This document shows positions 1-47,997 of a stretch of 64,000 nt of DNA, one piece after another. The stretch is from Rickettsiales bacterium (GTDB lineage: Bacteria > Pseudomonadota > Alphaproteobacteria > Rs-D84). The position numbers and the translations under genes were made by a program. Position 1 is the first letter of the stretch. Every line of letters starts with the position of its first letter. Where the stretch lies: assembly GCA_031260805.1 (NCBI GenBank), contig JAISKV010000004.1:4227-68226 (forward strand), read 5' to 3'. Below the pieces are notes generated by a model. It worked only from the letters and a program-made list of their open reading frames with translations. It searched no databases and was not told the DNA's origin.

Positions 1-207
1 GATGCACGGACAAAACCCATGCGGCGAACAGTCCGGCGATTGTTGACTTGCCCGAATGACGAAACGCCAGCAGCAGTCCGCGGCGCGGCGCGGTTTCCCA
101 CACGGATACCAGAAATTCCAGTATGCGCAAATGATGCCGGGGTGTTTTATTCCCCAGCATCCGGTTCCAAGAATTTACAAAAGATATTGCGGAATCCAGC
201 ATAAAAA

Positions 208-555
208 TTATGCCAGCAGCGACTCAAACTTTGCGATGAATGATTTCAGCAAGTTTGGCTTTTTCGTCTTTAATTTGGAAATCTTTTCCATGTTCGCCAA
301 TCGTTTTGACTGAAAAGGCTCTTCCGTTTCATCGCGCAGTCTTTTAAGAACCGCTTCATCGCTCATGCTGCGCCCTGATGCGCCGCTTGCGCCGTATTTG
401 GCGCGCTGGGCGGCCAAGGCTTTCTTTACCAGATTCGCCTTGGCTTTTTCGTCTTCGGCAATCTGCGCCAAGATTTTTGACTTCTCGGCCTTGGTCGCGT
501 TGTTTGCTTTTTTGTTTGTGATTATTTCCTGGATGTCGTTTACAATTGTTCCCAT
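208..555 (-). CDS. Hypothetical K/E-rich coiled-coil protein, last gene of the phage-like operon in this window (internal virion or scaffold-like)
   Basis: ORF directly downstream of the gp12-like gene; charged, low-complexity helical composition. Confidence 0.4.
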   Translation of the reverse strand: MGTIVNDIQEIITNKKANNATKAEKSKILAQIAEDEKAKANLVKKALAAQRAKYGASGASGRSMSDEAVLKRLRDETEEPFQSKRLANMEKISKLKTKKPNLLKSFIAKFESLLA

Positions 556-574
556 TTTTACACTCCTGTGTTTT

Positions 575-2287
575 TTATATTAAATACTGGCCTTCCATTT
601 TTATGGAAAGTATTGTCGCGCGCATGCCGCTGGTTCCTGAAATTTCCCACGGCGACGATGTCGCTGCGCGGTTCGTTCCCAGAAATACTGCTGACACGGC
701 ACCGGAAAACGGTTCCGTGAAAGTATGTTCAGATTCTGATTCGCAAACTGTGAATTTCAGATAATCCGATTCATGCAGCACGGCCGAGATTTTATTTATG
801 CGGACCTTTTCCGGCATGTGCCCGCCGCCCAGCATAGGCAGTCCGGATGCAGAGTATTGAAACGGCGGCTCGTCCGGGTCATCTGAAAATTTTTCCAGCC
901 AGAAATCGTCCCCGCGCCGCACGATGGCAAAAGTTTCATTGCCCAGGGTTACGACGGATCTGAATTGCCCGTCTGTTTCATACCGCGCCCAGCCCGAGAT
1001 TCCCATTTCGGAATTTTTATTCAAGACCGCCATGGTTCCGTCCGCCATCGCGACGAACAATTTTCTCGCCGCGCCGTTAAATGAAATGTCAACCGGCCCG
1101 TTCATCAAATGCCGCGCCGCCGCGCACAAATCGCGCGCGTTGTAATTCTGCTGCAAGTCATCCAGAACCAGTTCGCGCAATTCATCGCCTGTGCCGGCGA
1201 TGAAAACGGTGCAGTTTTCAATGCTCTGCGGTTCCAGATATTTTTCGCCGAAAGTGCCGATGGTGGCGTGCTGCTTGATGTCAATGGTTGAAGGCGTCAG
1301 CGGCTTGCTGGAAATCGCCCACACGCCGGCCGTGGTCAGAATCTGCAAGTTGTCGCAGGATACGGCCGTGCAGATTCTTTGCCTTTTGGATGCCAGCAGA
1401 GTCATGAAAATCGCTTCGTCATCCAATCCCGTTCCAGCGTTGAAATTATAGTGGTCGCCGACCTTGGACATCCAGATTCCGGCATCCCATTCGCGCGATC
1501 CGCCGAATACCAGACGGTTCTGATGGAATGTCGCGCAGCGCGGATATCCGCGGCGCGCGCTGAATGCCGATTCAGACCAGTCGCTCGTCTGCGTGCCTGG
1601 CGTCGTCCATCCGCCGTTCGTGTACGCGACGATCTGCGTCGGAGAAATGTATGACGAAATTATCCACTGCTTGCCCAGCGCCGTCAAATTCCCGTTAACA
1701 TTTCCGGCCGTCCAGAAATTACCGCTTGCGGTTATGGTGGCATAGTTCGTGCCTGCGCCGTTTTGCGCGAATGTCAGTTTAATATTCAGCGAATCGTCAA
1801 AGCGCATGAACGGGATATTGCGCGACATGTCGTCATTCACGCTGAAATAAAACTGCGCGATATCAAATGATTCGTCCGGCAGTTTTTTCAGCACCATCGG
1901 CGGATGATTTTCATGCGTGAAAATCATAGTGCCGAATCGCTGCGTGTACTGCACCGACGGGGTTTCGGCATCATTCCAAGGGGTCTGCAAATTTTGATAA
2001 AATTCGCCGTCCGGCGAAAAGATATCCACATGCCCGTCTGACAATGCCAGAATAAAATTGCTGCTGTCATCCGCGCAGTACGGGACCAGCACTGAATTTT
2101 CCGCAACGCCGTGCAGCCGCCGCAATCCGCGCCGCGGACGAATCGCTCCGCTGTCCGCGATGTCCATGTTGCACAGCCGCGCCAGCCCCGACGCCGCAAA
2201 TCCGTTGTCGCCGCGCCCCAGAAATTCCGGCGATATCTCGCCGTTTGCAAAAGAGTTTTGCGTCTTGATAAATTTTCCCATGTTCAC
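575..2287 (-). CDS. Phage tail tubular protein B-like (T7 gp12-like)
   Basis: N-terminus FIKTQNSFANGEISPEFLGRGDNG ... SGAIRPRRGL recalls T7 gp12 SIKNLKGGISQQPDILRYPDQG ... EGLQKRPPL; it follows the gp11-like gene with an ATGA overlap. Confidence 0.45.
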   Translation of the reverse strand: MNMGKFIKTQNSFANGEISPEFLGRGDNGFAASGLARLCNMDIADSGAIRPRRGLRRLHGVAENSVLVPYCADDSSNFILALSDGHVDIFSPDGEFYQNLQTPWNDAETPSVQYTQRFGTMIFTHENHPPMVLKKLPDESFDIAQFYFSVNDDMSRNIPFMRFDDSLNIKLTFAQNGAGTNYATITASGNFWTAGNVNGNLTALGKQWIISSYISPTQIVAYTNGGWTTPGTQTSDWSESAFSARRGYPRCATFHQNRLVFGGSREWDAGIWMSKVGDHYNFNAGTGLDDEAIFMTLLASKRQRICTAVSCDNLQILTTAGVWAISSKPLTPSTIDIKQHATIGTFGEKYLEPQSIENCTVFIAGTGDELRELVLDDLQQNYNARDLCAAARHLMNGPVDISFNGAARKLFVAMADGTMAVLNKNSEMGISGWARYETDGQFRSVVTLGNETFAIVRRGDDFWLEKFSDDPDEPPFQYSASGLPMLGGGHMPEKVRINKISAVLHESDYLKFTVCESESEHTFTEPFSGAVSAVFLGTNRAATSSPWEISGTSGMRATILSIKMEGQYLI

Positions 2288-2808
2288 CCCCGCACGCCGA
2301 TCAGCGGAAAGTTTTGTATGCCGCGAATCGGCGAATTGCTGCTGTCAATGAACTTGGCGTTCGCCAGTTCCAATTCATATAATCCGGACAGAGTTCTGAA
2401 TAAATTCTGATCGCCTGTCAGCGGCATGCAGAATTCCATGGCCAGTTTTGTCGCGGCGACCCCGATGAAATGACTGGGAAAAAATTCGCAGGATTTTTTC
2501 GCTATGGCGATTATTTTTATATTTTCCGCCGCGGTGAAAATCTCGTTTCCAATTATCTCGAAATTGCTTTCCGAACAAGAAATAATGCGCAGGACATCGG
2601 TCGGAATTGCAAATCCGCCGGATGCGCTGCGCGTCAAATCATATTTCATCGTCGCGAATCTCCAAGGATGCGCGGCGGTCAGATTGTCAATCGTCATGTC
2701 CCACACGGCGGCGGCCAGCATTGCGGCGGCCGAATTCTCATCCAGGGCCGCAATCGGCTTTTCCCCCAGTTTCAGCAAAGCCAGTGAAATTAAGTCAATT
2801 TGCGTCAT
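2284..2808 (-). CDS. Phage tail tubular protein A-like (T7 gp11-like)
   Basis: N-terminus IDLISLALLKLGEKPIAALDEN ... HPWRFA resembles T7 gp11 NDILASIGEPPVSTLEGD ... RGWTFN; gene order capsid, gp11, gp12 as in T7-like podoviruses. Confidence 0.45.
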   Translation of the reverse strand: MTQIDLISLALLKLGEKPIAALDENSAAAMLAAAVWDMTIDNLTAAHPWRFATMKYDLTRSASGGFAIPTDVLRIISCSESNFEIIGNEIFTAAENIKIIAIAKKSCEFFPSHFIGVAATKLAMEFCMPLTGDQNLFRTLSGLYELELANAKFIDSSNSPIRGIQNFPLIGVRG

Positions 2809-2809
2809 G

Positions 2810-3034
2810 TTAAATCCTTTTTATTTTTACGGCTGGCGCGGCGTCTGTTATCTTGAACAGCGCGGTGTCGTCCAAACCGCAGATTATTATTATGTCGCCG
2901 CCGTTCATCAGGCTTTTCATAGTGTTGAAAAATCCGTCGCAGCACAAAGCATCCATTTTGTCATGCGAACTGTAATGCCACAGCGTGAATCCGTTCGCGT
3001 ACGCGATGACGGACAGGTTTTTGTTTTGGAACAT
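2810..3034 (-). CDS. Small hypothetical phage-module protein
   Basis: 74 aa ORF packed between the hairpin and the gp11-like gene. Confidence 0.3.
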   Translation of the reverse strand: MFQNKNLSVIAYANGFTLWHYSSHDKMDALCCDGFFNTMKSLMNGGDIIIICGLDDTALFKITDAAPAVKIKRI

Positions 3035-3044
3035 GCTAAACTCC

Positions 3045-3133
3045 TTGGTTAAGTTTAAGGTTTGAGGTTTGAGGTTTAAGGTTTAAGGTAATTTTGTCAA
3101 TAACCTTAAACCCCAAACCTCAAACCTTAAACC
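3045..3133. terminator. Long near-perfect hairpin (aaggtttaagg / ccttaaacc arms, about 32 bp stem) immediately downstream of the capsid-like gene
   Basis: Inverted repeat seen directly; its position mirrors the T7 T-phi terminator after gene 10; the same aaggttt motif flanks host terminators elsewhere in the window. Confidence 0.5.
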
Positions 3134-3137
3134 TTGT

Positions 3138-3953
3138 TTATTCGCCGCACTTGATTTTAACGATGCCTTCGTTGTCAATCAGAACGCTGCCTTGGCTCAT
3201 GGAATTGCAGACAAAGTGCGAAGCGCGTTCGCCCACCCACGAGATGTCTGTTTTGACATCTTGGCCGACCGCGTGTCCGATTGCGGACGCGTGATACATA
3301 AAGCAGTCGCGCTCGTCATCGTCCACAGGCAATCCGTTGTGCAAAACCCAAATGACGCCCAGCCATTTCTTGGTCTCGAACCCAGACACCAGCGGTGTTT
3401 CGCCGCCGACATATTCCGCGGAAACGAATTCGTCCATGGACAGCAATTCATTCCACTGATGCACACCGACAACGGCGAACCTGCGCCCGTCATCAGGAAT
3501 GTCATTCGCGTTCAGCGATTCAATCGCGGACAAAATTCCGTCCTTGGTCAAACCGTCAGAGTAATCGCCGACAAAGTTGGTGGCGGCCGCCATTGAATTG
3601 ATAATCAATTCATCTGTCTTGCGCCCCAGCGCGTACGCGCCCGCGGACGCAACGACGCGCCGCTCGTCAATGTTGGTTTTGATTTCGTCCAACGCGTCAA
3701 CCCAGTCGCCGGCATAGTAATCCTGCAAGGCGCATTCAACGGATGTGTGCGCCAGATTCATGACGGGAACCAAGTCATGACGGGTTTTCGTGCTGGCGGT
3801 GCCGCGTCCGACTTTTTGGAAAGTCGTGCTGGAACCGACAATGCCGTCTTTGGAACGGATGGTGCTGCGCAGTTTTGTGCCCATCTGCTGGTATGCGAGA
3901 TGAACATCGGCCTCGAACTGCTTGACAAAGGCCTGGTTTATGCTTGTTGACAT
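3138..3953 (-). CDS. Putative phage major capsid protein
   Basis: 271 aa ORF at the capsid position, upstream of the gp11-like and gp12-like genes; no strong motif, so this is a positional call. Confidence 0.4.
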   Translation of the reverse strand: MSTSINQAFVKQFEADVHLAYQQMGTKLRSTIRSKDGIVGSSTTFQKVGRGTASTKTRHDLVPVMNLAHTSVECALQDYYAGDWVDALDEIKTNIDERRVVASAGAYALGRKTDELIINSMAAATNFVGDYSDGLTKDGILSAIESLNANDIPDDGRRFAVVGVHQWNELLSMDEFVSAEYVGGETPLVSGFETKKWLGVIWVLHNGLPVDDDERDCFMYHASAIGHAVGQDVKTDISWVGERASHFVCNSMSQGSVLIDNEGIVKIKCGE

Positions 3954-4106
3954 TATATTTTCCTTTGGTTGTAAAAAAACTTCGCGTATGCGAAGTCTGA
4001 TTGATTTGATTGTCCGTTATGCGTTGCCGCGCGGATTCTCAAATATCGCGGGTCCCAAAGATTTTCCGCAAATAGAAATGCAAAAAAATCGCCCGAAGGC
4101 GATTTT

Positions 4107-4373
4107 TTATTTTTTAACGACTTTTTTTGCCGCCGGTTTTTTCGCAACAACTTTCTTTGTGACCGGTTTTTTCACCGCGACTTTTTTCACCGCCGGTTTT
4201 TTCGCAACAACTTTCTTTGCGACCGGTTTTTTCACCGCGACTTTTTTCGCCGCCGGTTTTTTGGCGACAACTTTTTTCGCAGCCGGCTTTTTCGCGGCGA
4301 CTTTCTTTACTGCCGGTTTAGCAGCCGGTTTCGCGGCGGCTTTGACAACAGGTTTTTTTCCAAACAATGCCAT
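4107..4373 (-). CDS. Lys/Ala-rich basic repeat protein (histone H1-like), encoded by about 60 bp tandem DNA repeats
   Basis: AAKKPAAKKVVAKKP periodic repeats; tandem nucleotide repeats at 4121-4300; the plus-strand ORF 3922-4446 is its antisense artefact. Confidence 0.5.
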   Translation of the reverse strand: MALFGKKPVVKAAAKPAAKPAVKKVAAKKPAAKKVVAKKPAAKKVAVKKPVAKKVVAKKPAVKKVAVKKPVTKKVVAKKPAAKKVVKK

Positions 4374-4496
4374 TTTTCTCTCCTTTCAGGACTTAGTCAT
4401 TAGAAACAAATTTTATTGTTCCTTAACCACATTGTATCTGAAATAAAATTCGCGTGCAAGAGAAAAACATTTTTTGCGAATTATTTTTTATTTTTT

Positions 4497-5096
4497 TCAA
4501 CTGTATAATTTTCTGAAACCAGATTCTATTTTCCGGATGTGTTCGCCGTCGCGGTCGCGCCAGTATTTAGGATCCGCCATCATTTTTCGCAACGCCGCGT
4601 CATTCAGGGATTCCGCGGTGTTGGATGCGGTTTCAATTTTCGGTTCGGACGATCGCATCATCGCGAACACGGACTTGATTCCTTCCGCAGACCGCGACAA
4701 GTTTTCATACACATCGCCCGGCAGAAATTTTTCGCCGAAAGAATTTATTTCGCGCATCGCGTCATTCATTTTGTCTTCGCCGCCGAAAAATTTCTTTAAC
4801 TCTGCAAAATTTTCCGATTCGTATTGCGTTGAAAAAATGTTTTCCAGAACCGGCTGCAAAAATTCGTTCGCGATTTCATAAATTTTTTCCGCCTGGGCGC
4901 GGGACAGCCCCGCGTCCTTAAAGCGCTGCTTTAACTCTGCCGATGAAAACAGTTCGTGTTCCGGGTACTCGTTCGGGTCTTCGGGAATGTCGGCCGTTCT
5001 GGCCCCCAGTTTTTTTTCCAATTCGGCATAAGATTTAATCAGCATTTCATTGTTCAGCGAGCCGTCTTCATTCTGAAACTTTTTTGGGACTTCCAT
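4497..5096 (-). CDS. Acidic helical hypothetical protein (scaffold-like)
   Basis: 199 aa acidic, helical composition; sits upstream of the capsid-like gene as in T7 gene 9. Confidence 0.4.
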   Translation of the reverse strand: MEVPKKFQNEDGSLNNEMLIKSYAELEKKLGARTADIPEDPNEYPEHELFSSAELKQRFKDAGLSRAQAEKIYEIANEFLQPVLENIFSTQYESENFAELKKFFGGEDKMNDAMREINSFGEKFLPGDVYENLSRSAEGIKSVFAMMRSSEPKIETASNTAESLNDAALRKMMADPKYWRDRDGEHIRKIESGFRKLYS

Positions 5097-5292
5097 TTTT
5101 TCTCCTTTTGTTATCCATGCCGCGGCGCAGGAAATAAATCCCGGCCAGCGGATAAATTGCGTTCAGCATCTCGAATATGTTTTGCAATCCGGTTAGGTAC
5201 GCGCCGACGGCCGTCAAAATGCCGATGCCGGAAATTATAAAAGTGCGATGCCCGGCCAGCGCGCCGCCGGAAATTATCTGCTTTAATTTCAT
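5068..5292 (-). CDS. Small membrane protein (holin-like: hydrophobic segments plus a charged C-terminal tail)
   Basis: Start moved to MKLKQ so it abuts the stop of the upstream gene; hydrophobic segments and a basic tail. Confidence 0.35.
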   Translation of the reverse strand: MKLKQIISGGALAGHRTFIISGIGILTAVGAYLTGLQNIFEMLNAIYPLAGIYFLRRGMDNKRRKNGSPKKVSE

Positions 5293-5296
5293 AGAA

Positions 5297-5692
5297 TCAT
5301 CCTTTGTAGAATAAAAAATCGCCGACTTCGGCGATGTATCCAATATTGTAAGCCCAACTGGGGTTTTCGTTCTGGCGATGAAACCGCACCGCGCCGTTCA
5401 CACGATCGGGCAGTAGTTTTTTAAGCGATGCCTTTGCAACGCGCGTCGCCATTTTGATTTCCGGTGAATCGGAATCGGCGTACGCGAATCCGACCGGTGC
5501 GAACATGGGAATGATTTCTTCCCAGTCGCGGTCGTACTGTTCGCACAGATTATTTAACGCTGATGCGACGGCCTCGCATTCGGCCAGGGTCCTGGTCGCG
5601 CCCAGCGCGTTCAGTATCCGCGCTATCTTTGCGGCGGTTATGTCAAATTCGCTTTCATTTTCATAAACGGTCAGTTCCATTGGCGGCTCCAT
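5297..5692 (-). CDS. Hypothetical protein
   Basis: Start trimmed to MEPPMEL to avoid overlap with the divergent gene at 5808. Confidence 0.4.
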   Translation of the reverse strand: MEPPMELTVYENESEFDITAAKIARILNALGATRTLAECEAVASALNNLCEQYDRDWEEIIPMFAPVGFAYADSDSPEIKMATRVAKASLKKLLPDRVNGAVRFHRQNENPSWAYNIGYIAEVGDFLFYKG

Positions 5693-5807
5693 AAAAAAAA
5701 GCCGCGAATGCGGCGTAAAAAAAACGCGCCTTGCGCGCATCGTTGTTAAAAGCAGTATATCATAAAATGGCATTAAAATCAAGTCAAAAATATGATATAA
5801 TTGTATC

Positions 5808-8327
5808 GTGCTGAAAAATATACTCTGCGGTTTGCTGGTCGGAACCATGCTGTTCCAAAATATTTCATTCGCTGCGACGAACGCGCGCCGCGGGATTTCA
5901 GCGCCGGTCAGCGGGCCCAAGATTGTCGCGCGCGCGGCGGCAACCGCTTCCGTCGCGGGGGACGGGCAAAAGATACAGGTTGCGAAAACAAACTCGCTGG
6001 CGCCCCAAGAATGCCAGGATTATTGGTTCGGATGCATGGACGGATTCTGCATGTCTGATTCCGACAATGGCGGCCGCTGCATGTGCGGCGCGGATAAAGT
6101 CAAACTGGATGCGGAACTGCAAGGCATCAAAAATCAGATAAATGACAACGCGAATGCCGCATTGATTGCCAGCGACACCATAGCGGCCGGCGCAAATGCG
6201 GAAATCGTAAATTCCGGAACCGTGCGCCAGAATCGCGCCGCGGTCAAGGCGGCCGCCGCGTTGCGGACTTCGTCAAATGACGATGACATTTCCAGCATGA
6301 CCGGCATCCGGCGCCAGAACGCCGCCACGGAAATCTGCATGGAAAATCTGCCCGTCAATTGCGCGGATTCAATAACGATGACGAAAAGCCTGTATGCGAC
6401 GCAAATAGCGTCCGACTGCGGCGCGTATAAAAATTTCGTCGCGTCGCAGAATTTGGCGCTGCGCGATTCCAACTATGAAAAAGACAAAACGATTCGTGCC
6501 GCCGCGATGAAGAGTTTCGAGGATTCCAACAAATACACCCTGGGCGAATGCACGACTGAATTTATCAAGTGCATGCACACGCCGGACGCGTGCGGCGAAA
6601 ATTTGTGGGGCTGCATTTATCCTGACGAAAACGCGATGCAGACCGTCCTGCAAAGCAAAAAGTTGGTCTGCGATCACATAACAGCCAACTGTGTTCAATT
6701 CCGCGACGAAGTATGGCCGGCGGCGATGGCGGCGATGCGGGATGAATTTATCTTTGCGGCCCAGGCCAAGACCAGCGACGAATTGCAAAACTGCGGCGGC
6801 GAAATTGAAAAGTGCATACTGACGGCGTGCAATGAAAAAATCAACGGCGCGGACGCGAACGCATGCCTGGCGCGGCCGGAAATGGTGGAATCGTTTTGCA
6901 GGCCGCAGATAGAAAGATGCAACACGATAAACCCGCAGATTTACGAGTACAAACTGGCGGAATTGCAAGGCATGCGCAAAGATGCCTGTATGAAGGAATT
7001 TCAAGACTGCCTGTTGTCCGACAATGCCTGCGGCGAAAACATGTCCAATTGCATCGGGCTGGATCGTCCGCATATCCAGAAAATGTGCCCGCCGGAAAAG
7101 TTAGTAATTTGCAAAGGGTCAAATCCGAACTTTTCAATAAGCGACATAGACGACATGATAAACGGGATTTATCTGACGGCTGATAACGAAATGTGGAAAC
7201 TGTGCAGCAAAACAATCCAAGATAAAATGACTGAATTGTGCGGCGCGACGACCAGTTGCAATTACTTTGCGAGCACGGCGATTGGCAAAGACAATGTGAA
7301 TTATCAAAAAGTGAAAGACCAGCACTTGCTGACCGGAATGATAAATTGGGAAAGCGTTCCCGTGGTTGATGGAAAGATAGATACCGACGCGTACATCAAG
7401 ATGGTGCGCGGGATTGGCGATACAAAAAACACTGCGGATTCCGAAGCGGTGCTGGCCGGCATCCGCACGGGGCTGGACGATGCCCAGGGCTATGCGGACC
7501 GCGTGATAAATCTGTTGACCGCGGATCCGGGCGTCAGCGCCTGCATCAATGGGCGCGACATGTCCCAGGTGTCCGGTCGCAACAGCAAAATAGAAGGCCG
7601 CTTTCCAAATATTGCCGAGCCGTATAAAAATGTCATAACCCAATCAATATTGAACTATGCGCAGATGAATCAGAATGCCCGCGTTTTGGAATTGACGCAA
7701 AAGGCCAAGGAAGGCAAAAGCGCGGAAGAAATTGAAATGATGTGCCTGCAACTGCCCAGCCTGCTGGAAGGCGGCGCCAAGCAATTCAGCCAGGATCAGA
7801 ACAGCGAATTTATAACTGAAAGCAATTTTGCGACGACAAAGGTTATCGGAACAACGCTCAGTAATGTGCAGATGGCAAAGTTGAAAACGACAAAATTTCA
7901 ATTCACAAAGAACGATGTCATGTCGCGCGAGACATGGGCCGTGTACGAAGCCAGGGATAAAATATGCCATATTTATGGCAAGGATACTTTCTGCGGCAAG
8001 GAATCAACGGTCAAGGCGTATGTGCAGGCTGCGGAAAAGTCGTATGAAGACATCAAGAAAGAAGCGGCGAAAAACCTGAAAAAAGAAAGACTTGGTGAGG
8101 CAGGCGAAGCGGTCGCAATCGGTGCAGGAATCGCGATTGCCGCTGTTGCGGCGAATGCGGCGATTGTCGCGACATTCGGCGCGATTATAACGGTCGGCGC
8201 GTGCGTCCCGATTGTCGGCTGGATTGTGGCGGCGGCGGCGATTATAGTCGGCGCATTGCTGATAATATTCCGTAAAGAAAAAACGCTGTGCGAAACGCGC
8301 GATTGGGATAATCCGGTGCCGTTTTAA
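5808..8327 (+). CDS. Large secreted Cys-rich protein with C-terminal Ala/Gly-rich membrane anchor
   Basis: Signal peptide MLKNILCGLLVGTMLFQNISFA; recurring C..DACGEN..C motifs; hydrophobic C-terminus; antisense ORFs in this span are artefacts. Confidence 0.7.
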   Translation: MLKNILCGLLVGTMLFQNISFAATNARRGISAPVSGPKIVARAAATASVAGDGQKIQVAKTNSLAPQECQDYWFGCMDGFCMSDSDNGGRCMCGADKVKLDAELQGIKNQINDNANAALIASDTIAAGANAEIVNSGTVRQNRAAVKAAAALRTSSNDDDISSMTGIRRQNAATEICMENLPVNCADSITMTKSLYATQIASDCGAYKNFVASQNLALRDSNYEKDKTIRAAAMKSFEDSNKYTLGECTTEFIKCMHTPDACGENLWGCIYPDENAMQTVLQSKKLVCDHITANCVQFRDEVWPAAMAAMRDEFIFAAQAKTSDELQNCGGEIEKCILTACNEKINGADANACLARPEMVESFCRPQIERCNTINPQIYEYKLAELQGMRKDACMKEFQDCLLSDNACGENMSNCIGLDRPHIQKMCPPEKLVICKGSNPNFSISDIDDMINGIYLTADNEMWKLCSKTIQDKMTELCGATTSCNYFASTAIGKDNVNYQKVKDQHLLTGMINWESVPVVDGKIDTDAYIKMVRGIGDTKNTADSEAVLAGIRTGLDDAQGYADRVINLLTADPGVSACINGRDMSQVSGRNSKIEGRFPNIAEPYKNVITQSILNYAQMNQNARVLELTQKAKEGKSAEEIEMMCLQLPSLLEGGAKQFSQDQNSEFITESNFATTKVIGTTLSNVQMAKLKTTKFQFTKNDVMSRETWAVYEARDKICHIYGKDTFCGKESTVKAYVQAAEKSYEDIKKEAAKNLKKERLGEAGEAVAIGAGIAIAAVAANAAIVATFGAIITVGACVPIVGWIVAAAAIIVGALLIIFRKEKTLCETRDWDNPVPF

Positions 8328-15502: not shown

Positions 15503-15745
15503 CCCCACCCCGGAAAATTCTAATGAATTTTCCGACCCGCCCTCAAGGGGCGGGTAGTGAGTTCGGAGCCACTTGAAACTCGGAGCAAATCACCCGCCCC
15601 TTGAGGGCGGGTCAAAACGCCATCGGCGTTTTGGGGTGGGGTTGCATCACGCCGAAGTGAAGCGTCGCGGGATGACCAGTATGGGTGGTTCTGCACGGCC
15701 ATAGACCCCGGGGCGTGGCCTGGGGTGACGATGGGATAAACATAT
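15503..15745. repeat. Complex nested palindromic element (ccccacccc/ggggtgggg and cccgccctcaaggggcggg arms) between convergent genes
   Basis: Inverted repeats seen directly; ORF 15520-15702 inside it rejected. Confidence 0.5.
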
Positions 15746-15773
15746 CAGACAATATATATTAATTCACTTGAAC

Positions 15774-16340
15774 TTAAAATTTTATGCTGATACTGGTATC
15801 AAGCGCGATTGCAGAACCGATTATATCAATATCAAATCCGTAGATTTTTGTTGACGAAGAAAATCCGCTGTATGACAATCCAACTTTAATGTTGGATGTA
15901 TCGGTCAAGTTATATTGGACCCCGGCGCCAATCCCATAAGAGAATCCTGTTGCAGAAATTTCTTCACCATAAACATCAGCATCTATGTTGATAGATGCTA
16001 TTCCGATATTTGTTGAAATATATGGGGTAAATTGAGTATCCATCAGCGCGTATGTCCAGCCGATATCAAATTCATTTATTGAAGTTGTATCGTCTGTTTC
16101 GCGCGCAAAAAAAACGCCGCCCATCATTTTATTATTCCCGTACCCTAATGCAAATCCTCCGTAATTGTTAAATCCGCCGCTTGTGTTTTTAGCGATATTT
16201 ACCCCTTCAATTGACATTTTTATGTCAGTTGAACTGAGAACATTCGCACCAGTTGAGACTATGAACCCGTAATCATTGGCGGCATTTGCCGCGCCTGCCG
16301 CAATCATTGCCCCAAAAGACATTAACATAACTTTATTCAT
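15774..16340 (-). CDS. Small outer membrane beta-barrel protein
   Basis: Signal peptide; alternating amphipathic beta strands; C-terminal F. Confidence 0.6.
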   Translation of the reverse strand: MNKVMLMSFGAMIAAGAANAANDYGFIVSTGANVLSSTDIKMSIEGVNIAKNTSGGFNNYGGFALGYGNNKMMGGVFFARETDDTTSINEFDIGWTYALMDTQFTPYISTNIGIASINIDADVYGEEISATGFSYGIGAGVQYNLTDTSNIKVGLSYSGFSSSTKIYGFDIDIIGSAIALDTSISIKF

Positions 16341-16361
16341 GAAGTATCTCCTTTGTTTTCA

Positions 16362-16468
16362 CAAAACAACCACCAAAAATGTTTGGTGGTTGGAGTTTTC
16401 TAACAATGTCTTGTGATATTGCTGGCTTTATTCAATATATTCAGCCAACTCCAACCGTTTGGTTGGAT
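16362..16468 (-). promoter_or_regulatory. Structured 5' leader, copy 2, upstream of the OMP gene
   Basis: Reverse complement aligns with 14783-14886: ggttggagt, tgaatatattgaata, aactccaaccacca ... tggtggtt plus T-run. Confidence 0.5.
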
Positions 16469-16631
16469 ATTTTTCGTAATCTCTTACGCACAAGATCTGG
16501 GTTAGAAAGCCCCCGTGCAATTATTTATTGCACTGATGCGAGTTTATAAAGTATTTGTCAGATTGTAAAGATAAAAATAACCCCTGTCCGCTGTGGCGGA
16601 CAGGGCGCGCGCAGGCATCGGCCTGCATTTT

Positions 16632-32097: not shown

Positions 32098-32356
32098 GAA
32101 TTAGATAAAAATTAAAAGATAATAGATAAAAATTTCCGACTATCGTTCCGGCCTTTGCTGGAATAACAAAATATATACCACTACCCCGTCGCGCTGCGCG
32201 CGCCACCCCTTCGCCAGCGAAGGGGATTTATCCTTACTTCGTTTCAAGTGCAGGCCATCAAATTCCCCTTCGCTGGCGAAGGGGTGGCGCGCGCAGCGTG
32301 ACGGGGTAGTGGTATATAAAAAAACGCGCCGTACGGCGCGTTTTTTCGTTATTTAT

Positions 32357-40321: not shown

Positions 40322-42088
40322 ATGGATAAAAAAGACAAAAAGGAAAAAAAGCGCGGGTTCGGCATATGGATGCTGACCGTCGCGTCAAACGCTGTGCTGG
40401 CGGTCGTGATTGCCGTCGCTTTTTATGTCTTTATCGTGTTTTTGCAAATGCCGTCCCTGGACGCGATTCTGCGCGAAACCCGCGCGCCCAGCATTTCATT
40501 TCTGGACCGCAGCGGCGCGGAAATTCAATCGCGGAATAAAATCATGGAAACGCCTGTGTCAGTTTTGTCTCTGCCGCCGCATGTGTGGCAGTCGGTTGTC
40601 GCGATTGAAGACCGCCGCTTTTTCAATCATGGCCCGATTGATTTCCGCGGACTGTCCCGCGCGGTGTTTTCCAATCTGCGTGCGGGACATGTCGCCGCCG
40701 GGGGCAGCACGATTACCCAGCAGACGGCGAAAAACATTTTCTTGAACCGCAACCGCACCATGTCGCGCAAGGTGCAGGAAGTAATTTTATCGTATTGGCT
40801 GGAAAACAGGTTTGATAAAAATCAAATTCTGGATTTGTATCTGAACCGGGTGAGTCTGGTTGGCGGCCTGCGCGGGATTGACGCCGCATCGCGAACTCTG
40901 TTCGGGCATGGCGCGGACAAGATGACGGTGGCGGAAAGCGCGACCATCGCCGCGATGTTAAAGGCCCCCACGACTTACAATCCGCAGAAAAATCCGGAAC
41001 TGGCCGCCGCGCGCGCGAAACTGGTATTAAAAGAAATGGTGCGGCAGAATTATATCAGCCTGGGCGATGCGCGCGCCGCGGCATCGCAGTTGAACAAATT
41101 TTCCGCCGTTCGCCGCGATATGAACATTTACCGGTATTGGACGGACTTTGTATTGGACGAAGTTCATTCGCAGATTGGCGATGAAATAACAAGCGACATC
41201 ATCGTTCATACGACTCTGGACGGCGAATTGCAATCGCGCATCGCAAATGTCGTCGCGCGCGGCATCGCGGCCGCGCGTGATAAAAATGCGGGCCAGGGCG
41301 CGGCGGTATCGCTGGATCCGAACGGCGCGATTCGCGCCATGGTCGGCGGCGGCGATTATCAGGCCAGCCAGTTCAACCGCGTTCTGGCCCCGCGCCAGCC
41401 GGGCAGCGCGTTCAAGCCGATTGTGTACCTGGTCGCGTTGGAAAACGGCATGACGCCGGACAGCATTGCAAACGATTCCCCGTTCAGCATCGGCGATTAC
41501 AATCCGAAGAATTATAATGAAAAATATTACGGCGACATCACGCTGGGCGCGGCGTTTGCAAAAAGCGTGAATTCGGTCCCGTTAAAACTGACACAGCAAT
41601 TCGGCATAGACAGCGTCTTGAAAATGGCGGGACGGCTGGGCGTCGGCGCGCGCTTGCGGCGCGAATACTCCACAGTGCTGGGGTCCAGCGAAATGAGCCT
41701 GATGGATCTGGCCACCATGTACGGCGTGATTTGGAATAATGGAAATTCAGTACGGCCGTACGGCATAGAAAAAATAACGACGATTGACGGCCGCGTTTTG
41801 TATGCTCATGGCGACGGCGATAAAATAAAATTGCTGGACGATGATGCCGTCGCATACATGCAGGAACTATTGCGCGATGTTGTCGCGGCCGGTGGAACCG
41901 GCGCGCGCAGCGGCGCGGCCGGCGGCAAGACCGGAACCAGCAACGATTACCGCGATGCTTGGTTCATCGGATTTGACGGACAGAAAGTTATTGGAATCTG
42001 GGTCGGCAACGACGACAACAGCCCGATGAAGAACATAACCGGCGGCACCATCCCGGCAGAGATTTTTAATAAAGTTATTAGTTATTAA
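40322..42088 (+). CDS. mrcA: Class A penicillin-binding protein (transglycosylase plus transpeptidase)
   Basis: GT51 motifs EDRRFFNHGPID and TITQQTAKN; transpeptidase SAFKP and KTGTS. Confidence 0.8.
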   Translation: MDKKDKKEKKRGFGIWMLTVASNAVLAVVIAVAFYVFIVFLQMPSLDAILRETRAPSISFLDRSGAEIQSRNKIMETPVSVLSLPPHVWQSVVAIEDRRFFNHGPIDFRGLSRAVFSNLRAGHVAAGGSTITQQTAKNIFLNRNRTMSRKVQEVILSYWLENRFDKNQILDLYLNRVSLVGGLRGIDAASRTLFGHGADKMTVAESATIAAMLKAPTTYNPQKNPELAAARAKLVLKEMVRQNYISLGDARAAASQLNKFSAVRRDMNIYRYWTDFVLDEVHSQIGDEITSDIIVHTTLDGELQSRIANVVARGIAAARDKNAGQGAAVSLDPNGAIRAMVGGGDYQASQFNRVLAPRQPGSAFKPIVYLVALENGMTPDSIANDSPFSIGDYNPKNYNEKYYGDITLGAAFAKSVNSVPLKLTQQFGIDSVLKMAGRLGVGARLRREYSTVLGSSEMSLMDLATMYGVIWNNGNSVRPYGIEKITTIDGRVLYAHGDGDKIKLLDDDAVAYMQELLRDVVAAGGTGARSGAAGGKTGTSNDYRDAWFIGFDGQKVIGIWVGNDDNSPMKNITGGTIPAEIFNKVISY

Positions 42089-42089
42089 T

Positions 42090-42178
42090 TATTAGTTATT
42101 ATACTCTTGTGAGTGTTGCAAAAATTCCGCCACCACAAACAGAAGTATAATAACTAATAATTAATAACTATTGAAAAT
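42090..42178. repeat. Palindromic AT-rich repeat element, family C (ttattaattattagttattatac ... gtataataactaataattaataa)
   Basis: Second copy at 43449-43557 on the other side of the M16 peptidase gene; partial at 38866-38905. Confidence 0.7.
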
Positions 42179-43439: not shown

Positions 43440-43560
43440 TGTAATTATCCTTAGTTATTAATTATTAGTTATTAATTATTATACATTGGTGCGTATTATG
43501 AAAATTCTGCCGCCACAAACAGAAGTATAATAACTAACAACTAATAATTAATAACTATTT

Positions 43561-47866: not shown

Positions 47867-47997
47867 GCCTGCATTCTACCGCGAAACCCGCATATTTGCA
47901 AATTTAAGTGCAGGTGTAGGTGAAGGTGTAGGGTGAAGGCCATTAACTTTCACATGCACCTACACCTGCACTAAAAAAACGGGCTTGCGCCCGCTTT

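What the first reader, a model, noticed from the sequence alone, without database searches (positions are those of the whole stretch)
1..5700. T7-like podovirus structural module without portal or terminase: prophage remnant or domesticated module
The 174 aa protein resembles T7 gp11 (IGEPP / LGEKP and WTFN / WRFA N-terminal patterns). The 570 aa protein resembles T7 gp12 (GGISQQPDIL / NGEISPEFLG and KRPPL / RPRRGL). These lie downstream of a capsid-like gene and a long hairpin sited like T7 T-phi, with an acidic scaffold-like protein and a holin-like protein upstream. No portal or terminase lies between this cluster and the host gene at 5808, so the element may continue left of the window, be degraded, or be a co-opted particle-forming locus.
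Basis: partly seen in the sequence, partly recalled or inferred. Interest (0 to 1): 0.6.

Follow-up and report, generated by a model that had tools for sequence, protein, structure and literature searches.

The report
Domesticated T7-like particle genes, gut Alphaproteobacteria
The window holds one operon of phage head and tail genes that tiny-genome gut Alphaproteobacteria (order Rs-D84, Candidatus Enterousia and relatives) have inherited vertically and kept intact in at least 79 species-representative genomes, so it is most likely a co-opted virus-like particle, probably a gene transfer agent, not a dying prophage.

Summary
Window 1-5790 (minus strand) is one operon: lysin-like protein, small membrane protein, T7-type scaffold, poly-lysine protein, HK97-type capsid, 74-aa protein, tail adaptor (gp11-like), nozzle (gp12-like), 115-aa protein and the start of a terminase gene cut by the window edge.

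An identical contig shows that this gene encodes only the ATPase half of TerL (198 aa). Housekeeping genes follow (Era, QueA, Tgt). There is no integrase, att repeat or GC anomaly.

All 80 related loci examined (79 MAGs, one genome per species) keep the block in the same order. ORFs are intact, dN/dS is 0.08-0.32, and divergence tracks DnaB (Mantel r 0.75-0.79). There, the nuclease half of TerL, a T7-type portal and two small genes form a second operon. No such operon lies in this window.

The operon starts with a near-consensus promoter followed by two intrinsic terminators. A new covarying RNA motif sits before the capsid gene.

Best reading: a domesticated, GTA-like podovirus particle under antitermination control. 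DNA packaging and transfer are untested. Whether this genome has the portal and the second terminase half is unknown.

The parts
1..202 (-). 5' part (codons 1-67) of TerL-N, the ATPase half of a split large terminase. The gene runs off the left edge of the window; the full product is 198 aa.
   Evidence: L004 is 100% identical to window 1-3086 and gives the whole ORF, followed by Era. phrog_38 terminase large subunit, E=3.8e-41, profile positions 276-458/760. T7 gp19 (PDB 8DGC) residues 53-211, E=5e-19, with Walker A FRHSGKST and Walker B LIICDDVE.
208..555 (-). 115-aa conserved helical, charged protein of unknown role. It sits where T7-like phages encode internal virion proteins.
   Evidence: Intact orthologue in 78/80 loci, dN/dS 0.23. 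Only a weak Pfam T7_gp14 match, E=0.022.
575..2287 (-). Tail nozzle, tail tubular protein B (gp12-like). 570 aa from the GTG; more likely 568 aa from the ATG at 2281.
   Evidence: phrog_376, 1.3e-74; PDB 8CK1_A 'Tail Nozzle', 5.8e-23; phage hits annotated tail tubular protein B. Intact in 79/80 loci.
2284..2808 (-). Tail adaptor, tail tubular protein A (gp11-like), 174 aa.
   Evidence: phrog_394, 3e-30; Pfam Tube 21.8 bits against a cut-off of 22.3. Weak matches to solved adaptor/connector chains 8CK1_E and 9S5J_X. Intact in 80/80 loci.
2810..3034 (-). 74-aa conserved small protein, also found between capsid and adaptor genes in related phages.
   Evidence: phrog_18004, 1.1e-7. Homologue in the phage-like scaffold MT838907 at the same position. 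dN/dS 0.11.
3053..3135 (-). Long imperfect hairpin built from GGTTTRA heptamers, between the capsid and 74-aa genes. It is specific to this lineage.
   Evidence: dG -51.6 kcal/mol; inverted repeat I3/I5. Among 80 relatives only L070 has a comparable hairpin. Similar repeat-built hairpins occur elsewhere in the window.
3138..3953 (-). Major capsid protein, 271 aa.
   Evidence: Pfam PF19821, 1.5e-68; PDB 9EG4_A phage major capsid protein, 9.5e-23. 76-81% identical to the 80 related loci. dN/dS 0.08.
3973..3996 (-). Terminator-like hairpin plus T7 run, immediately before the capsid ribosome-binding site.
   Evidence: Sequence read. A site of this kind lies between the RNA motif and the capsid ATG in 43/77 loci.
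4013..4071 (-). Conserved structured RNA motif in the capsid leader: two GG/CC-closed hairpins with AYAA internal loops. No Rfam family matches.
   Evidence: Covariance model R1 hits here at E=1.2e-7. It hits exactly once per related locus, always upstream of the capsid gene, 79 sources. 93% of cells paired and 11/13 pairs with compensatory changes. No Rfam match.
4083..4108 (-). Palindromic GC hairpin flanked by A and T runs at the end of the poly-lysine gene (terminator-like on both strands).
   Evidence: 70/77 loci have at least one such site between the K-rich stop codon and the RNA motif.
4107..4373 (-). 88-aa poly-(AKKPA) protein, about 37% Lys, histone-H1/HC2-like in composition.
   Evidence: Pfam HC2, 5.5e-9, below its cut-off. 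An ORF of at least 60 aa with more than 25% K+R lies between the scaffold and capsid genes in 67/67 loci. It is absent from the phage relatives L001 and L002.
4497..5096 (-). Scaffolding protein (T7 gp9 family), 199 aa, acidic.
   Evidence: Pfam Phage_T7_Capsid, 3.5e-12. 32% identical to the scaffold of MT838907. dN/dS 0.22.
5068..5292 (-). Small membrane protein, about 74 aa, in a holin-like position next to the lysin homologue.
   Evidence: No family match. Orthologue present next to the lysin homologue in the relatives. The role is inferred.
5297..5680 (-). SleB/Hydrolase_2-like lysin homologue, 127 aa, first gene of the operon.
   Evidence: Weak Pfam Hydrolase_2 match, 0.0036. The L027 orthologue hits phrog_938 endolysin at 1.2e-7. 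There is a homologue in Pelagibacter phage Hodr. The conserved Glu is Leu here; among relatives it is E 37, Q 21, H 1, S 1 of 60.
5693..5738 (-). Two tandem intrinsic-terminator hairpins, each followed by T8, lying between the promoter and the first start codon.
   Evidence: Two such sites within 120 nt upstream of the first gene in 58/67 loci and one in the other 9; background is 0.07 per 120 nt.
5759..5787 (-). Promoter-like site TTGACT-17-TATGAT, conserved in position and sequence in the relatives.
   Evidence: 10 of 12 matches. The same CTTGACTTTT ... TGTGATAnTAT arrangement is seen in 24 other loci.

Best explanation
Window 1-5790 is the main operon of a domesticated, chromosomally fixed, T7-type podovirus particle system. 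It is shared by gut Alphaproteobacteria of the reduced-genome order Rs-D84 (Candidatus Enterousia and relatives; this copy comes from a MAG deposited as 'Rickettsiales bacterium', locus tag LBO08). I commit to a gene-transfer-agent-like reading.

Proposed mechanism:
1. A near-consensus promoter fires into two tandem terminators, so the operon stays silent until an unidentified antitermination signal lets RNA polymerase read through. It must then also pass the terminators after the poly-lysine gene and before the capsid gene, where a conserved structured RNA sits.
2. Read-through yields a lysin-like protein plus a small membrane protein (release by lysis), scaffold plus capsid (procapsid), adaptor plus nozzle (short tail), a 115-aa protein, a poly-lysine protein (DNA charge neutralisation or condensation) and the ATPase half of TerL.
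3. In the relatives, a second operon supplies the lid-plus-nuclease half of TerL, the portal, a Bbp19-like protein and a membrane/coiled-coil protein.
4. The two TerL halves would assemble on the portal and, with no recognisable small terminase, package DNA without sequence specificity.

Shown: gene identities; operon limits; the TerL split; fixed synteny; intact ORFs; purifying selection; co-divergence with the host; conserved promoter, terminators and RNA motif.

Inferred: particle assembly; antitermination control; host-DNA packaging and transfer; the roles of the membrane, poly-lysine and 115-aa proteins.

Rough odds: a selected, vertically inherited functional module, about 0.85. That its function is GTA-like DNA packaging and transfer, about 0.5.
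For: Identity of the parts.

Limits of the block:
- L004, 100% identical to the window over 3086 bp, shows the TerL-N stop and then Era, QueA and Tgt.
- On the right are a divergent Cys-rich gene, a tRNA, a glycosyltransferase, LigA and LpxI.
- No direct repeat of 9 nt or more at the two junctions.
- GC is 0.500 inside against 0.501 outside.
- No other phage-like gene in the 64 kb.

Breadth:
- 3109 capsid clusters at 90% identity.

Synteny:
- All 80 loci examined keep the same gene order, lysin to TerL-N.
- About 64-78 of them also keep p93-p151-BirA upstream and p213-xre-DnaB-TerL-C-portal-p66-p86 downstream.
- The window and L148 have different flanks but the same block.

Selection and inheritance:
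- Intact ORFs: tubeA 80/80, tubeB 79, capsid 79, TerL-N 78 of 80 loci. For TerL-C (72 loci), portal (64), p115 (78) and the 74-aa gene (78), every hit covering at least 90% of the query lacked a stop.
- dN/dS is 0.08-0.32, against DnaB 0.06 and BirA 0.17.
- Mantel r against DnaB is 0.75-0.79, p=0.001, equal to BirA against DnaB at 0.74.

Split TerL:
- The halves map to phrog_38 positions 276-458 and 468-704.
- Concatenated, they align as one piece over 94-97% of contiguous TerL genes of T7-like phages.
- Walker A is kept in 78/78, Walker B in 74/78, HDDG[LI]DA in 68/72.

Regulation.

Host genomes are only 0.75-1.0 Mb, so retaining about 9 kb of phage genes argues for function (PMC12306168).
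Against: - No particle, packaged DNA or transfer has been observed. All genomes are MAGs.
- Parts a T7-like virion needs were not found in the window or in the 10-kb flanks of relatives: internal core/ejection proteins (gp14-16), a small terminase and a receptor-binding fibre. Only a 182-aa fibre N-terminal domain exists, in 59/80 loci, and this window lacks it.
- The portal and TerL-C are absent from this 64-kb window and from 5 kb downstream in the closest relative, L148. This genome could hold an incomplete set.
- The lysin's conserved Glu is Leu here and Gln in a third of the relatives, so enzymatic lysis is doubtful.
- Several module proteins are 4-11 identity points more diverged in this lineage than in L148, whereas DnaB, capsid and TerL-N are not.
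- I know of no split TerL shown to work in trans.
- dS is close to saturation (medians 0.9-1.4), so the dN/dS values are approximate.
- No antiterminator was identified.
Confidence: 0.6

Rival explanations
1. The module is domesticated, but not for DNA transfer. Candidate functions are a particle that delivers protein or nucleoprotein, a bacteriocin-like killing particle, a capsid-based compartment, or a decoy against related phages. The poly-lysine protein, not host DNA, might be the main cargo partner.
For: Conservation and selection prove function but not which function. Ejection proteins, a small terminase and a full fibre are missing. A universal poly-lysine gene has been added that phage relatives lack. 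The lysin's catalytic residue is not conserved.
Against: Both TerL halves keep their ATPase and nuclease motifs under purifying selection (dN/dS 0.11 and 0.19). The portal is among the most conserved genes (0.08). This is hard to explain unless DNA is packaged. I recall no known tailocin or compartment that retains portal plus terminase.
Confidence: 0.22
2. The system works in Enterousia, but the copy in this genome is on its way out. It was left behind after a rearrangement that separated it from, or lost, TerL-C and the portal, and it is only recently non-functional.
For: No portal or TerL-C in 64 kb. Flanks differ from the common synteny. There is no fibre N-terminal gene. The lysin has Leu for the conserved Glu plus a 13-residue deletion. 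The lysin, scaffold, 74-aa, adaptor, nozzle and 115-aa proteins are 4-11 points more diverged than in L148.
Against: All nine complete genes, and the part of the tenth (TerL-N) that the window holds, are intact, including the 568-aa nozzle. Capsid and TerL-N are as conserved as in L148. The promoter, both leader terminators and the RNA motif are retained, the motif with two compensatory pair changes. GTA genes are commonly scattered, so absence from 64 kb of a genome of roughly 1 Mb proves little.
Confidence: 0.12
3. The module is a mobile element: an integrated defective prophage or phage satellite (PICI-like or capsid-forming) that targets one site and relies on a helper phage for the missing functions.
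For: IMG/VR lists about 47 10-kb cut-outs of this locus as viral contigs. A phage-like scaffold from human faeces (MT838907) carries portal, scaffold, capsid, adaptor and nozzle with a 61.5% identical capsid. The gene set is incomplete, as in satellites.
Against: No integrase, replication module or att repeats. Divergence tracks DnaB as tightly as BirA does. The element is interrupted by the DnaB gene, and the TerL-C and DnaB start codons overlap. GC matches the host. The same block occurs with three different sets of flanks and no element-like ends.
Confidence: 0.04
4. The module is a non-functional prophage remnant decaying neutrally.
For: It lacks many virion genes. MAG annotation calls most of the proteins hypothetical.
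Against: At 41-53% amino-acid identity for the scaffold, adaptor and nozzle proteins, the ORFs are still intact in 78-80 of 80 loci, with dN/dS 0.08-0.32. The host genomes are under strong reductive pressure. The non-coding signals are conserved and show covariation.
Confidence: 0.02

Closest known systems
RcGTA-type gene transfer agents of Alphaproteobacteria (Rhodobacter capsulatus RcGTA and relatives)
   Same: Phage-derived head, tail and packaging genes fixed in the chromosome, inherited vertically, under purifying selection, with no integrase or replication genes and with genes in more than one locus. Lysis genes are associated with the system. The host class is the same.
   Different: RcGTA is siphovirus-like, with a tail tube, tape measure, a different (non-PF19821) HK97-fold capsid, a prohead protease and an intact TerL plus TerS. 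This element is podovirus, T7-type (scaffold, adaptor, nozzle, gp8-type portal). It has a TerL split into two genes, no protease, no recognisable TerS and an added poly-lysine protein. No DNA transfer has been shown.
FpGTA of Faecalibacterium prausnitzii (PMC12946183)
   Same: A gut bacterium with GTA-like loci split into two operons and probably podovirus-like morphology. [quoted passage not shown]
   Different: FpGTA is in Firmicutes and has experimental evidence of host-DNA encapsidation. I did not test homology to it. Here there is no experiment, but conservation is much broader.
Bacteriophage T7 virion and packaging module (gp8, gp9, gp10, gp11, gp12, gp19)
   Same: Homologues of the scaffold (PF05396), adaptor, nozzle, portal (PF12236, 1.3e-80 in relatives) and TerL (T7 gp19, PDB 8DGC, E=5e-19). 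The gene order scaffold-capsid-adaptor-nozzle is the same.
   Different: No gp14/15/16 core, no gp17 fibre body, no gp18. The capsid belongs to the small PF19821 family found in Pelagibacter and Vibrio podoviruses (47% to Pelagibacter phage Hodr), not to T7 gp10. The portal is about 100 residues shorter than in phage relatives. TerL is split. The element is not a virus genome.
Lambdoid late-operon control by processive antitermination (Q protein; HK022 put RNA)
   Same: A strong promoter is followed directly by terminator(s) ahead of lysis and structural genes. Further terminators lie inside the operon. A two-hairpin RNA element lies upstream of a terminator.
   Different: No Q-like protein or put homologue was identified, and T7-like phages do not use this scheme. 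The resemblance is architectural and recalled from general knowledge. Function is untested.
Cryptic or defective prophages
   Same: An incomplete phage gene set in a bacterial chromosome, flagged as provirus by IMG/VR.
   Different: Cryptic prophages are patchy among strains, carry pseudogenes and often keep an integrase, att sites and deviant composition. None of these applies here.

Membership tests
T7-type podovirus structural/packaging module | HK97-fold major capsid protein plus gp9-type scaffolding protein | tested here: met
   PF19821, 1.5e-68; PF05396, 3.5e-12; PDB 9EG4_A, 9.5e-23.
T7-type podovirus structural/packaging module | gp11-like adaptor and gp12-like nozzle | tested here: met
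   phrog_394, 3e-30; phrog_376, 1.3e-74; PDB tail nozzle 8CK1_A, 5.8e-23. Pfam Tube is 0.5 bit under its cut-off.
T7-type podovirus structural/packaging module | gp8-type portal | tested here: not met
   No portal in the 64-kb window. A portal is present in a second operon in 69 of the 80 related loci (PF12236, 1.3e-80).
T7-type podovirus structural/packaging module | gp19-type large terminase as one polypeptide | tested here: not met
   The homologue is split. TerL-N (198 aa) matches T7 gp19 residues 53-211. TerL-C (287 aa) is a separate gene in the relatives and is absent from the window.
T7-type podovirus structural/packaging module | Internal core/ejection proteins gp14-gp16 and the gp17 tail fibre | tested here: not met
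   Only a weak gp14 hint for the 115-aa protein (E=0.022). No other phage-like gene in the window. The relatives have only a 182-aa fibre N-terminal domain, in 59/80 loci.
T7-type podovirus structural/packaging module | Single-subunit phage RNA polymerase (defines Autographiviridae) | not tested
   No dedicated search was made. The operon carries a sigma-70-type promoter.
Gene transfer agent (viriform) | Phage-derived particle genes fixed in the chromosome, without integrase, replication genes or att sites | tested here: met
   GC equals that of the host.
Gene transfer agent (viriform) | Vertical inheritance with the host and purifying selection across species | tested here: met
   Synteny in 80 loci; dN/dS 0.08-0.32; Mantel r 0.75-0.79 against DnaB.
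Gene transfer agent (viriform) | Particles package more or less random host DNA, not their own genes | not testable with these tools
   Needs sequencing of DNase-protected particles. The only indirect hint is that no TerS was recognised.
Gene transfer agent (viriform) | Packaged DNA is delivered to recipient cells | not testable with these tools
   These bacteria are uncultured. Ejection proteins and a receptor-binding protein were not found.
Gene transfer agent (viriform) | Production controlled by host regulation | tested here: inconclusive
   The promoter, tandem terminators and RNA motif are conserved, but no regulator was identified.
Cryptic prophage remnant | Pseudogenes, patchy distribution, att sites or integrase, deviant composition | tested here: not met
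Phage satellite (PICI, capsid-forming PICI) | Integrase, att sites, own replication module, mobility among strains | tested here: not met
   None were found within the block or its flanks. Co-divergence with DnaB.
Antitermination-controlled late operon (lambdoid type) | Promoter followed by terminator(s) upstream of the lysis/structural genes | tested here: met
   Window 5787-5693. Two terminators in 58/67 relatives and one in the other 9.
Antitermination-controlled late operon (lambdoid type) | A dedicated antiterminator (Q-like protein or put-like RNA) | tested here: inconclusive
   No protein candidate has family support. A new two-hairpin RNA lies before the capsid gene, but its function is unknown and it does not precede the leader terminators.

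The most novel reading that the evidence does not exclude
An entire order of genome-reduced gut Alphaproteobacteria (Rs-D84) runs a podovirus-derived gene transfer agent of a type not described before. It would be T7-like, driven by a terminase that works as two separately encoded polypeptides, carrying a poly-lysine DNA-condensing protein, and gated by processive antitermination that involves a new RNA motif. In lineages of 0.75-1 Mb with few other routes of exchange, it could be the main means of recombination.
Probability: 0.35. Interest if true: 0.9.

Novelty: new variant of a known kind. Interest (0 to 1): 0.78.

Why it matters
Only a handful of domesticated phage particle systems are characterised. 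All the well-studied alphaproteobacterial ones are siphovirus-like, and the first podovirus-like candidate (FpGTA, Firmicutes) was reported only in 2026 (PMC12946183).

If this reading holds, it matters in four ways:
- A T7-type module retained under selection across many species of bacteria with genomes under 1 Mb would be a strong natural case that such particles pay their way. It offers a testable answer to how genome-reduced, probably host- or partner-dependent gut bacteria exchange DNA.
- It offers a natural experiment on whether a viral packaging motor can work with its ATPase core and its lid-plus-nuclease part as separate chains.
- It adds a new covarying RNA motif and a multi-terminator operon design to study.
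- Virus-detection pipelines already count this locus as a provirus (about 47 IMG/VR entries), which inflates estimates of lysogeny for this clade.

Tried and rejected
- Exact-protein look-up of the nozzle protein found nothing. The capsid look-up returned only a 1.1-kb contig. The adaptor look-up gave the useful 7-kb extension L004.
- I first took the 501-aa ORF of Pelagibacter phage Hodr as a TerL reference. It has no similarity to TerL-N or TerL-C, so T7 gp19 and T7-like phages served as the reference instead.
- A single-sequence PDB search with TerL-C found nothing. Its identity rests on phrog_38 and on Pfam Terminase-T7_RNaseH-like.
- RNAalifold on a MAFFT alignment of the operon leader predicted no pairs, because the hairpins differ in length and sequence. 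The tandem terminators were therefore counted sequence by sequence against a background rate.
- The idea that the post-capsid hairpin is a conserved T-phi analogue was rejected.
- The idea that the window's Glu-to-Leu change in the lysin marks decay unique to this genome was weakened, because a third of the relatives carry Gln there.
- A loose DNA pattern for the RNA motif, scanned against IMG/VR, gave 120 stretches. All 80 that I re-scored with the covariance model failed, so they are chance matches.
- A tail-fibre-like 169-aa gene downstream of the portal (L118) occurs in only 3 loci with enough sequence, so it is not a general component.
- Rfam has no family for either leader.
- Literature searches found no description of this element. 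The 2023 Enterousia paper is not in the library.
- I could not determine whether the LBO08 genome encodes a portal or TerL-C elsewhere.

Full report
**1. What is in the window**

On the minus strand, bases 5787 down to 1 form one co-directional gene block. In order of transcription it contains:
- a promoter-like site, TTGACT-17-TATGAT (5787-5759);
- two intrinsic-terminator hairpins, each followed by eight T (5738-5693);
- an SleB/Hydrolase_2-like lysin homologue (5680-5297);
- a small hydrophobic protein (5292-5068);
- a T7 gp9-family scaffolding protein (5096-4497; Pfam PF05396, 3.5e-12);
- an 88-aa poly-(AKKPA) protein (4373-4107);
- a 153-nt structured leader;
- the major capsid protein (3953-3138; PF19821, 1.5e-68);
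- a long hairpin (3135-3053);
- a 74-aa protein (3034-2810; phrog_18004);
- the tail adaptor (2808-2284; phrog_394, 3e-30);
- the tail nozzle (2287-575; phrog_376, 1.3e-74; PDB 8CK1 'Tail Nozzle', 5.8e-23);
- a 115-aa protein (555-208);
- from base 202 to the window edge, the start of a large-terminase gene.

**2. Where it ends**

A 7-kb Logan contig (L004) is 100% identical to window 1-3086 and extends the sequence to the left. The terminase ORF stops after 198 codons. It is followed by Era, QueA, a 132-aa gene and Tgt.

On the right lie a divergently transcribed 839-aa Cys-rich protein, a tRNA, a glycosyltransferase, LigA and LpxI.

- No integrase is present.
- The two junctions share no direct repeat of 9 nt or more.
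- GC is 0.500 inside the block and 0.501 outside.
- ORFs of related phages match nothing else in the 64 kb.

The element is about 6.2 kb and is bounded by housekeeping genes on both sides.

**3. The terminase is split**

The 198-aa product matches phrog_38 (terminase large subunit, 3.8e-41), but only profile positions 276-458 of 760. It also matches T7 gp19 (PDB 8DGC) residues 53-211, with Walker A (FRHSGKST), Walker B (LIICDDVE) and the GTP motif.

In related genomes a separate 287-aa gene matches positions 468-704 of the same profile and Pfam Terminase-T7_RNaseH-like. Joined end to end, the two products align as a single piece over 94-97% of their length to the uninterrupted TerL of T7-like phages, with 540 phage records covering at least 80%.

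The split falls after the Rossmann core of the ATPase, before the lid and nuclease. Both halves keep their catalytic motifs: Walker A in 78/78, Walker B in 74/78, HDDG[LI]DA in 68/72.

**4. Relatives**

The best 80 loci (79 MAGs, capsid 76-81% identical) are gut, rumen and termite Alphaproteobacteria, many named Candidatus Enterousia. A protein search found 3109 capsid clusters at 90% identity. It also identified the source of the window as an NCBI MAG, 'Rickettsiales bacterium' LBO08_01330, on a 70.8-kb contig.

Enterousia belongs to order Rs-D84. Its genomes are 0.75-1.0 Mb and lack the TCA cycle and respiration. The paper describing them never mentions phage, capsid or gene transfer (PMC12306168).

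All 80 loci carry the same genes in the same order, from lysin to TerL-N. In about 64-78 of them the surroundings are also fixed:
- upstream: p93 (HTH), p151, BirA;
- downstream, on the opposite strand: p213, an Xre/S24-like regulator, DnaB;
- then a second operon: TerL-C, a T7 gp8-type portal (PF12236, 1.3e-80), a Bbp19-like 66-aa protein and an 86-aa membrane/coiled-coil protein.

The DnaB and TerL-C start codons overlap head to head in a CATG. A 182-aa protein consisting only of a T7 fibre N-terminal domain precedes TerL-N in 59/80 loci and is absent from the window.

The window, and its closest relative L148 (capsid 83%), have other flanks but exactly the same block. The block is thus kept as a unit through rearrangements. 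No portal or TerL-C is present in the 64-kb window.

**5. Evolution**

- Despite 41-53% identity for the scaffold, adaptor and nozzle proteins, ORFs are intact: adaptor 80/80, nozzle 79, capsid 79, TerL-N 78. For TerL-C (72 loci) and the portal (64), every hit covering at least 90% of the query lacked a stop.
- Nei-Gojobori dN/dS, for pairs with dS below 1.5: capsid 0.08, portal 0.08, TerL-N 0.11, 74-aa 0.11, nozzle 0.18, adaptor 0.19, TerL-C 0.19, scaffold 0.22, p115 0.23, lysin 0.32. Host genes give DnaB 0.06 and BirA 0.17. dS is near saturation, so these are rough values, but all are far below 1.
- Pairwise distances of module proteins correlate with DnaB distances (Mantel r 0.75-0.79, p=0.001) as well as BirA does (0.74).

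This pattern indicates vertical inheritance under selection. It fits neither a decaying remnant nor a mobile element.

Within the window lineage, DnaB, capsid and TerL-N are as conserved as in L148. The lysin, scaffold, 74-aa, adaptor, nozzle and p115 proteins are 4-11 identity points more diverged. The lysin carries Leu at the conserved Glu and a 13-residue deletion, but a third of the Enterousia copies carry Gln there.

**6. Regulation**

The operon leader is conserved in design. CTTGACTTTT, about 17 nt and an extended -10 (TGTGATAnTAT) are followed within about 30 nt by two hairpins, each with a T7-9 run, and then directly by the ribosome-binding site. Two such sites lie within 120 nt of the first gene in 58/67 loci and one in the remaining 9. 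The background rate is 0.07 per 120 nt. This holds whatever gene lies upstream.

No room is left for a promoter after the terminators. Transcription must therefore read through them, which points to antitermination control. That step is an inference.

More terminator-like sites follow the poly-lysine gene (70/77 loci) and precede the capsid start (43/77). The window has one of each.

Between them lies a 60-75-nt motif of two GG/CC-closed hairpins with AYAA internal loops:
- On a 24-sequence seed, 92% of cells pair against 81% in shuffles, and 10/13 pairs show changes on both sides.
- A covariance model built from the seed hits exactly once per locus, always upstream of the capsid gene, in 79 sources including the window (4013-4071, E=1.2e-7). 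It hits nowhere else in 1.6 Mb and not in the phage records.
- On the 77 distinct hits, 93% of cells pair and 11/13 pairs are compensatory.
- The window copy carries two compensatory swaps in one helix.
- Rfam has no match.

The long hairpin after the capsid gene is not conserved. Only L070 has a comparable one, and it resembles other repeat-built hairpins in this window.

**7. Most likely mechanism**

Shown: a T7-type set of scaffold, capsid, adaptor, nozzle and split terminase, plus (in relatives) a portal. The set is fixed in the chromosome and selected.

Inferred: on an unknown signal, RNA polymerase becomes terminator-resistant and expresses the lysin-like and membrane proteins together with the structural proteins. 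Procapsids form on the portal. TerL-N and TerL-C assemble into a motor that, with no recognisable small terminase, packages DNA without sequence specificity. The poly-lysine protein, which is universal here (67/67) and absent from the phage relatives L001 and L002, may neutralise or condense DNA. Particles are released by lysis. This amounts to a GTA-like viriform.

Arguments against:
- no ejection proteins, full fibre or TerS were found in the loci;
- the lysin's catalytic residue is not conserved;
- no split TerL is known to function;
- nothing has been observed experimentally;
- this particular genome may lack the second operon.

**8. Comparison and novelty**

- It works like an alphaproteobacterial GTA but is not an RcGTA homologue (podovirus versus siphovirus parts).
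- It resembles FpGTA of Faecalibacterium in probable morphology and two-operon layout (PMC12946183), but it is in another phylum and has no experimental evidence.
- Its parts are T7-type, but it fails the membership test for a T7-like virus genome: no core proteins, no fibre body, a split TerL and a sigma-70 promoter.
- Its leader resembles lambdoid late-operon control in architecture only.
- Searches of the held literature found no description of it.
- IMG/VR lists about 47 cut-outs of the locus as viral contigs.

I class it as a new variant of a known kind (domesticated phage particle, GTA-like).

**9. Caveats**

- All genomes are MAGs. A few are mislabelled (some as Muribaculaceae), and one MAG contributes two loci.
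- I inspected only the best 80 of at least 485 loci.
- E-values from the shortened covariance-model calibration are rough.
- The covariation counts on the model-fitted alignment lean towards the model, although the MAFFT seed gave the same picture.

Noticed in passing
window 4013-4071 (-); L005-L084 about 60-140 nt upstream of the capsid ATG: A new conserved structured RNA motif: two hairpins closed by GG/CC helices, with AYAA internal loops. It occurs once per locus, always in the capsid leader. It is absent from Rfam and from the phage relatives.
   Followed up: yes
window 5693-5787 (-); the same position in 67/67 related loci: A near-consensus promoter is followed by two tandem intrinsic terminators placed directly before the first gene of the operon. 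This implies read-through (antitermination) control.
   Followed up: yes
L027:18160-19023 and the equivalent region in about 118 loci; L004:2885-3481: The large terminase is encoded as two genes. Three opposite-strand genes, including DnaB, separate them. The DnaB and TerL-C start codons overlap head to head in a CATG.
   Followed up: yes
window 4107-4373 (-): A poly-(AKKPA) protein, about 37% lysine, lies between the scaffold and capsid genes in every locus examined (67/67). It is absent from the related phages Hodr and MT838907. Its origin and role are unknown.
   Followed up: partly
L027:9790-9870 and most Enterousia loci, between the K-rich stop codon and the RNA motif: A sequence-conserved palindrome, TCAGTCAGAT...ATCTGACTGA, followed by a T run. 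Conservation of sequence rather than only of pairing suggests a protein operator. It is missing from the window, L148 and L005.
   Followed up: no
window 42079-42170, 43452-43557, 47903-47976, 32172-32318, 15534-15613: Several long intergenic hairpins, some built from short tandem repeats, like the one after the capsid gene. This looks like a genome-wide habit of this organism.
   Followed up: partly
window 5297-5680 (-); alignment A1: The lysin homologue has Leu at the Glu of the GEA/AET motif and a 13-residue deletion. Among 60 relatives that column reads E 37, Q 21, H 1, S 1, so the protein may often be non-catalytic.
   Followed up: partly
window 5808-8327 (+): An 839-aa Cys-rich protein with an N-terminal signal-like segment and a C-terminal hydrophobic tail. 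It has no significant Pfam or PHROG family and is transcribed divergently from the module.
   Followed up: no
L027:14885-15526 (-) and 15555-16583 (-); L148:14917-16608: A 213-aa protein of unknown family and a double-HTH regulator with a possible S24-like C-terminal part (seen by eye, no Pfam hit) stay next to TerL-N even where DnaB and the portal have moved away (L148). They are candidate regulators of the system. The window lacks them.
   Followed up: partly
L002 (MT838907.1, human faeces, 5084 bp): A phage-like scaffold with contiguous portal, Bbp19-like, scaffold, capsid, 87-aa, adaptor and nozzle genes, and a capsid 61.5% identical to the window's. It is the closest undomesticated-looking relative found.
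   Followed up: partly
L118:11648-12157; also L108, L112: A 169-aa tail-fibre-like gene (IQIRRG...GE motif) lies about 1.3 kb downstream of the portal in three loci. It may be a receptor-binding component in some lineages.
   Followed up: partly
L085-L131 (IMG/VR UViGs): About 47 IMG/VR 'viral genomes' of roughly 10 kb are cut-outs of this chromosomal locus, so the clade's apparent proviruses are largely this element.
   Followed up: partly
L010, L030, L070, L083: These MAGs are deposited as 'uncultured Muribaculaceae bacterium' but carry the Enterousia-type locus and synteny. They are probably mislabelled or mis-binned.
   Followed up: no
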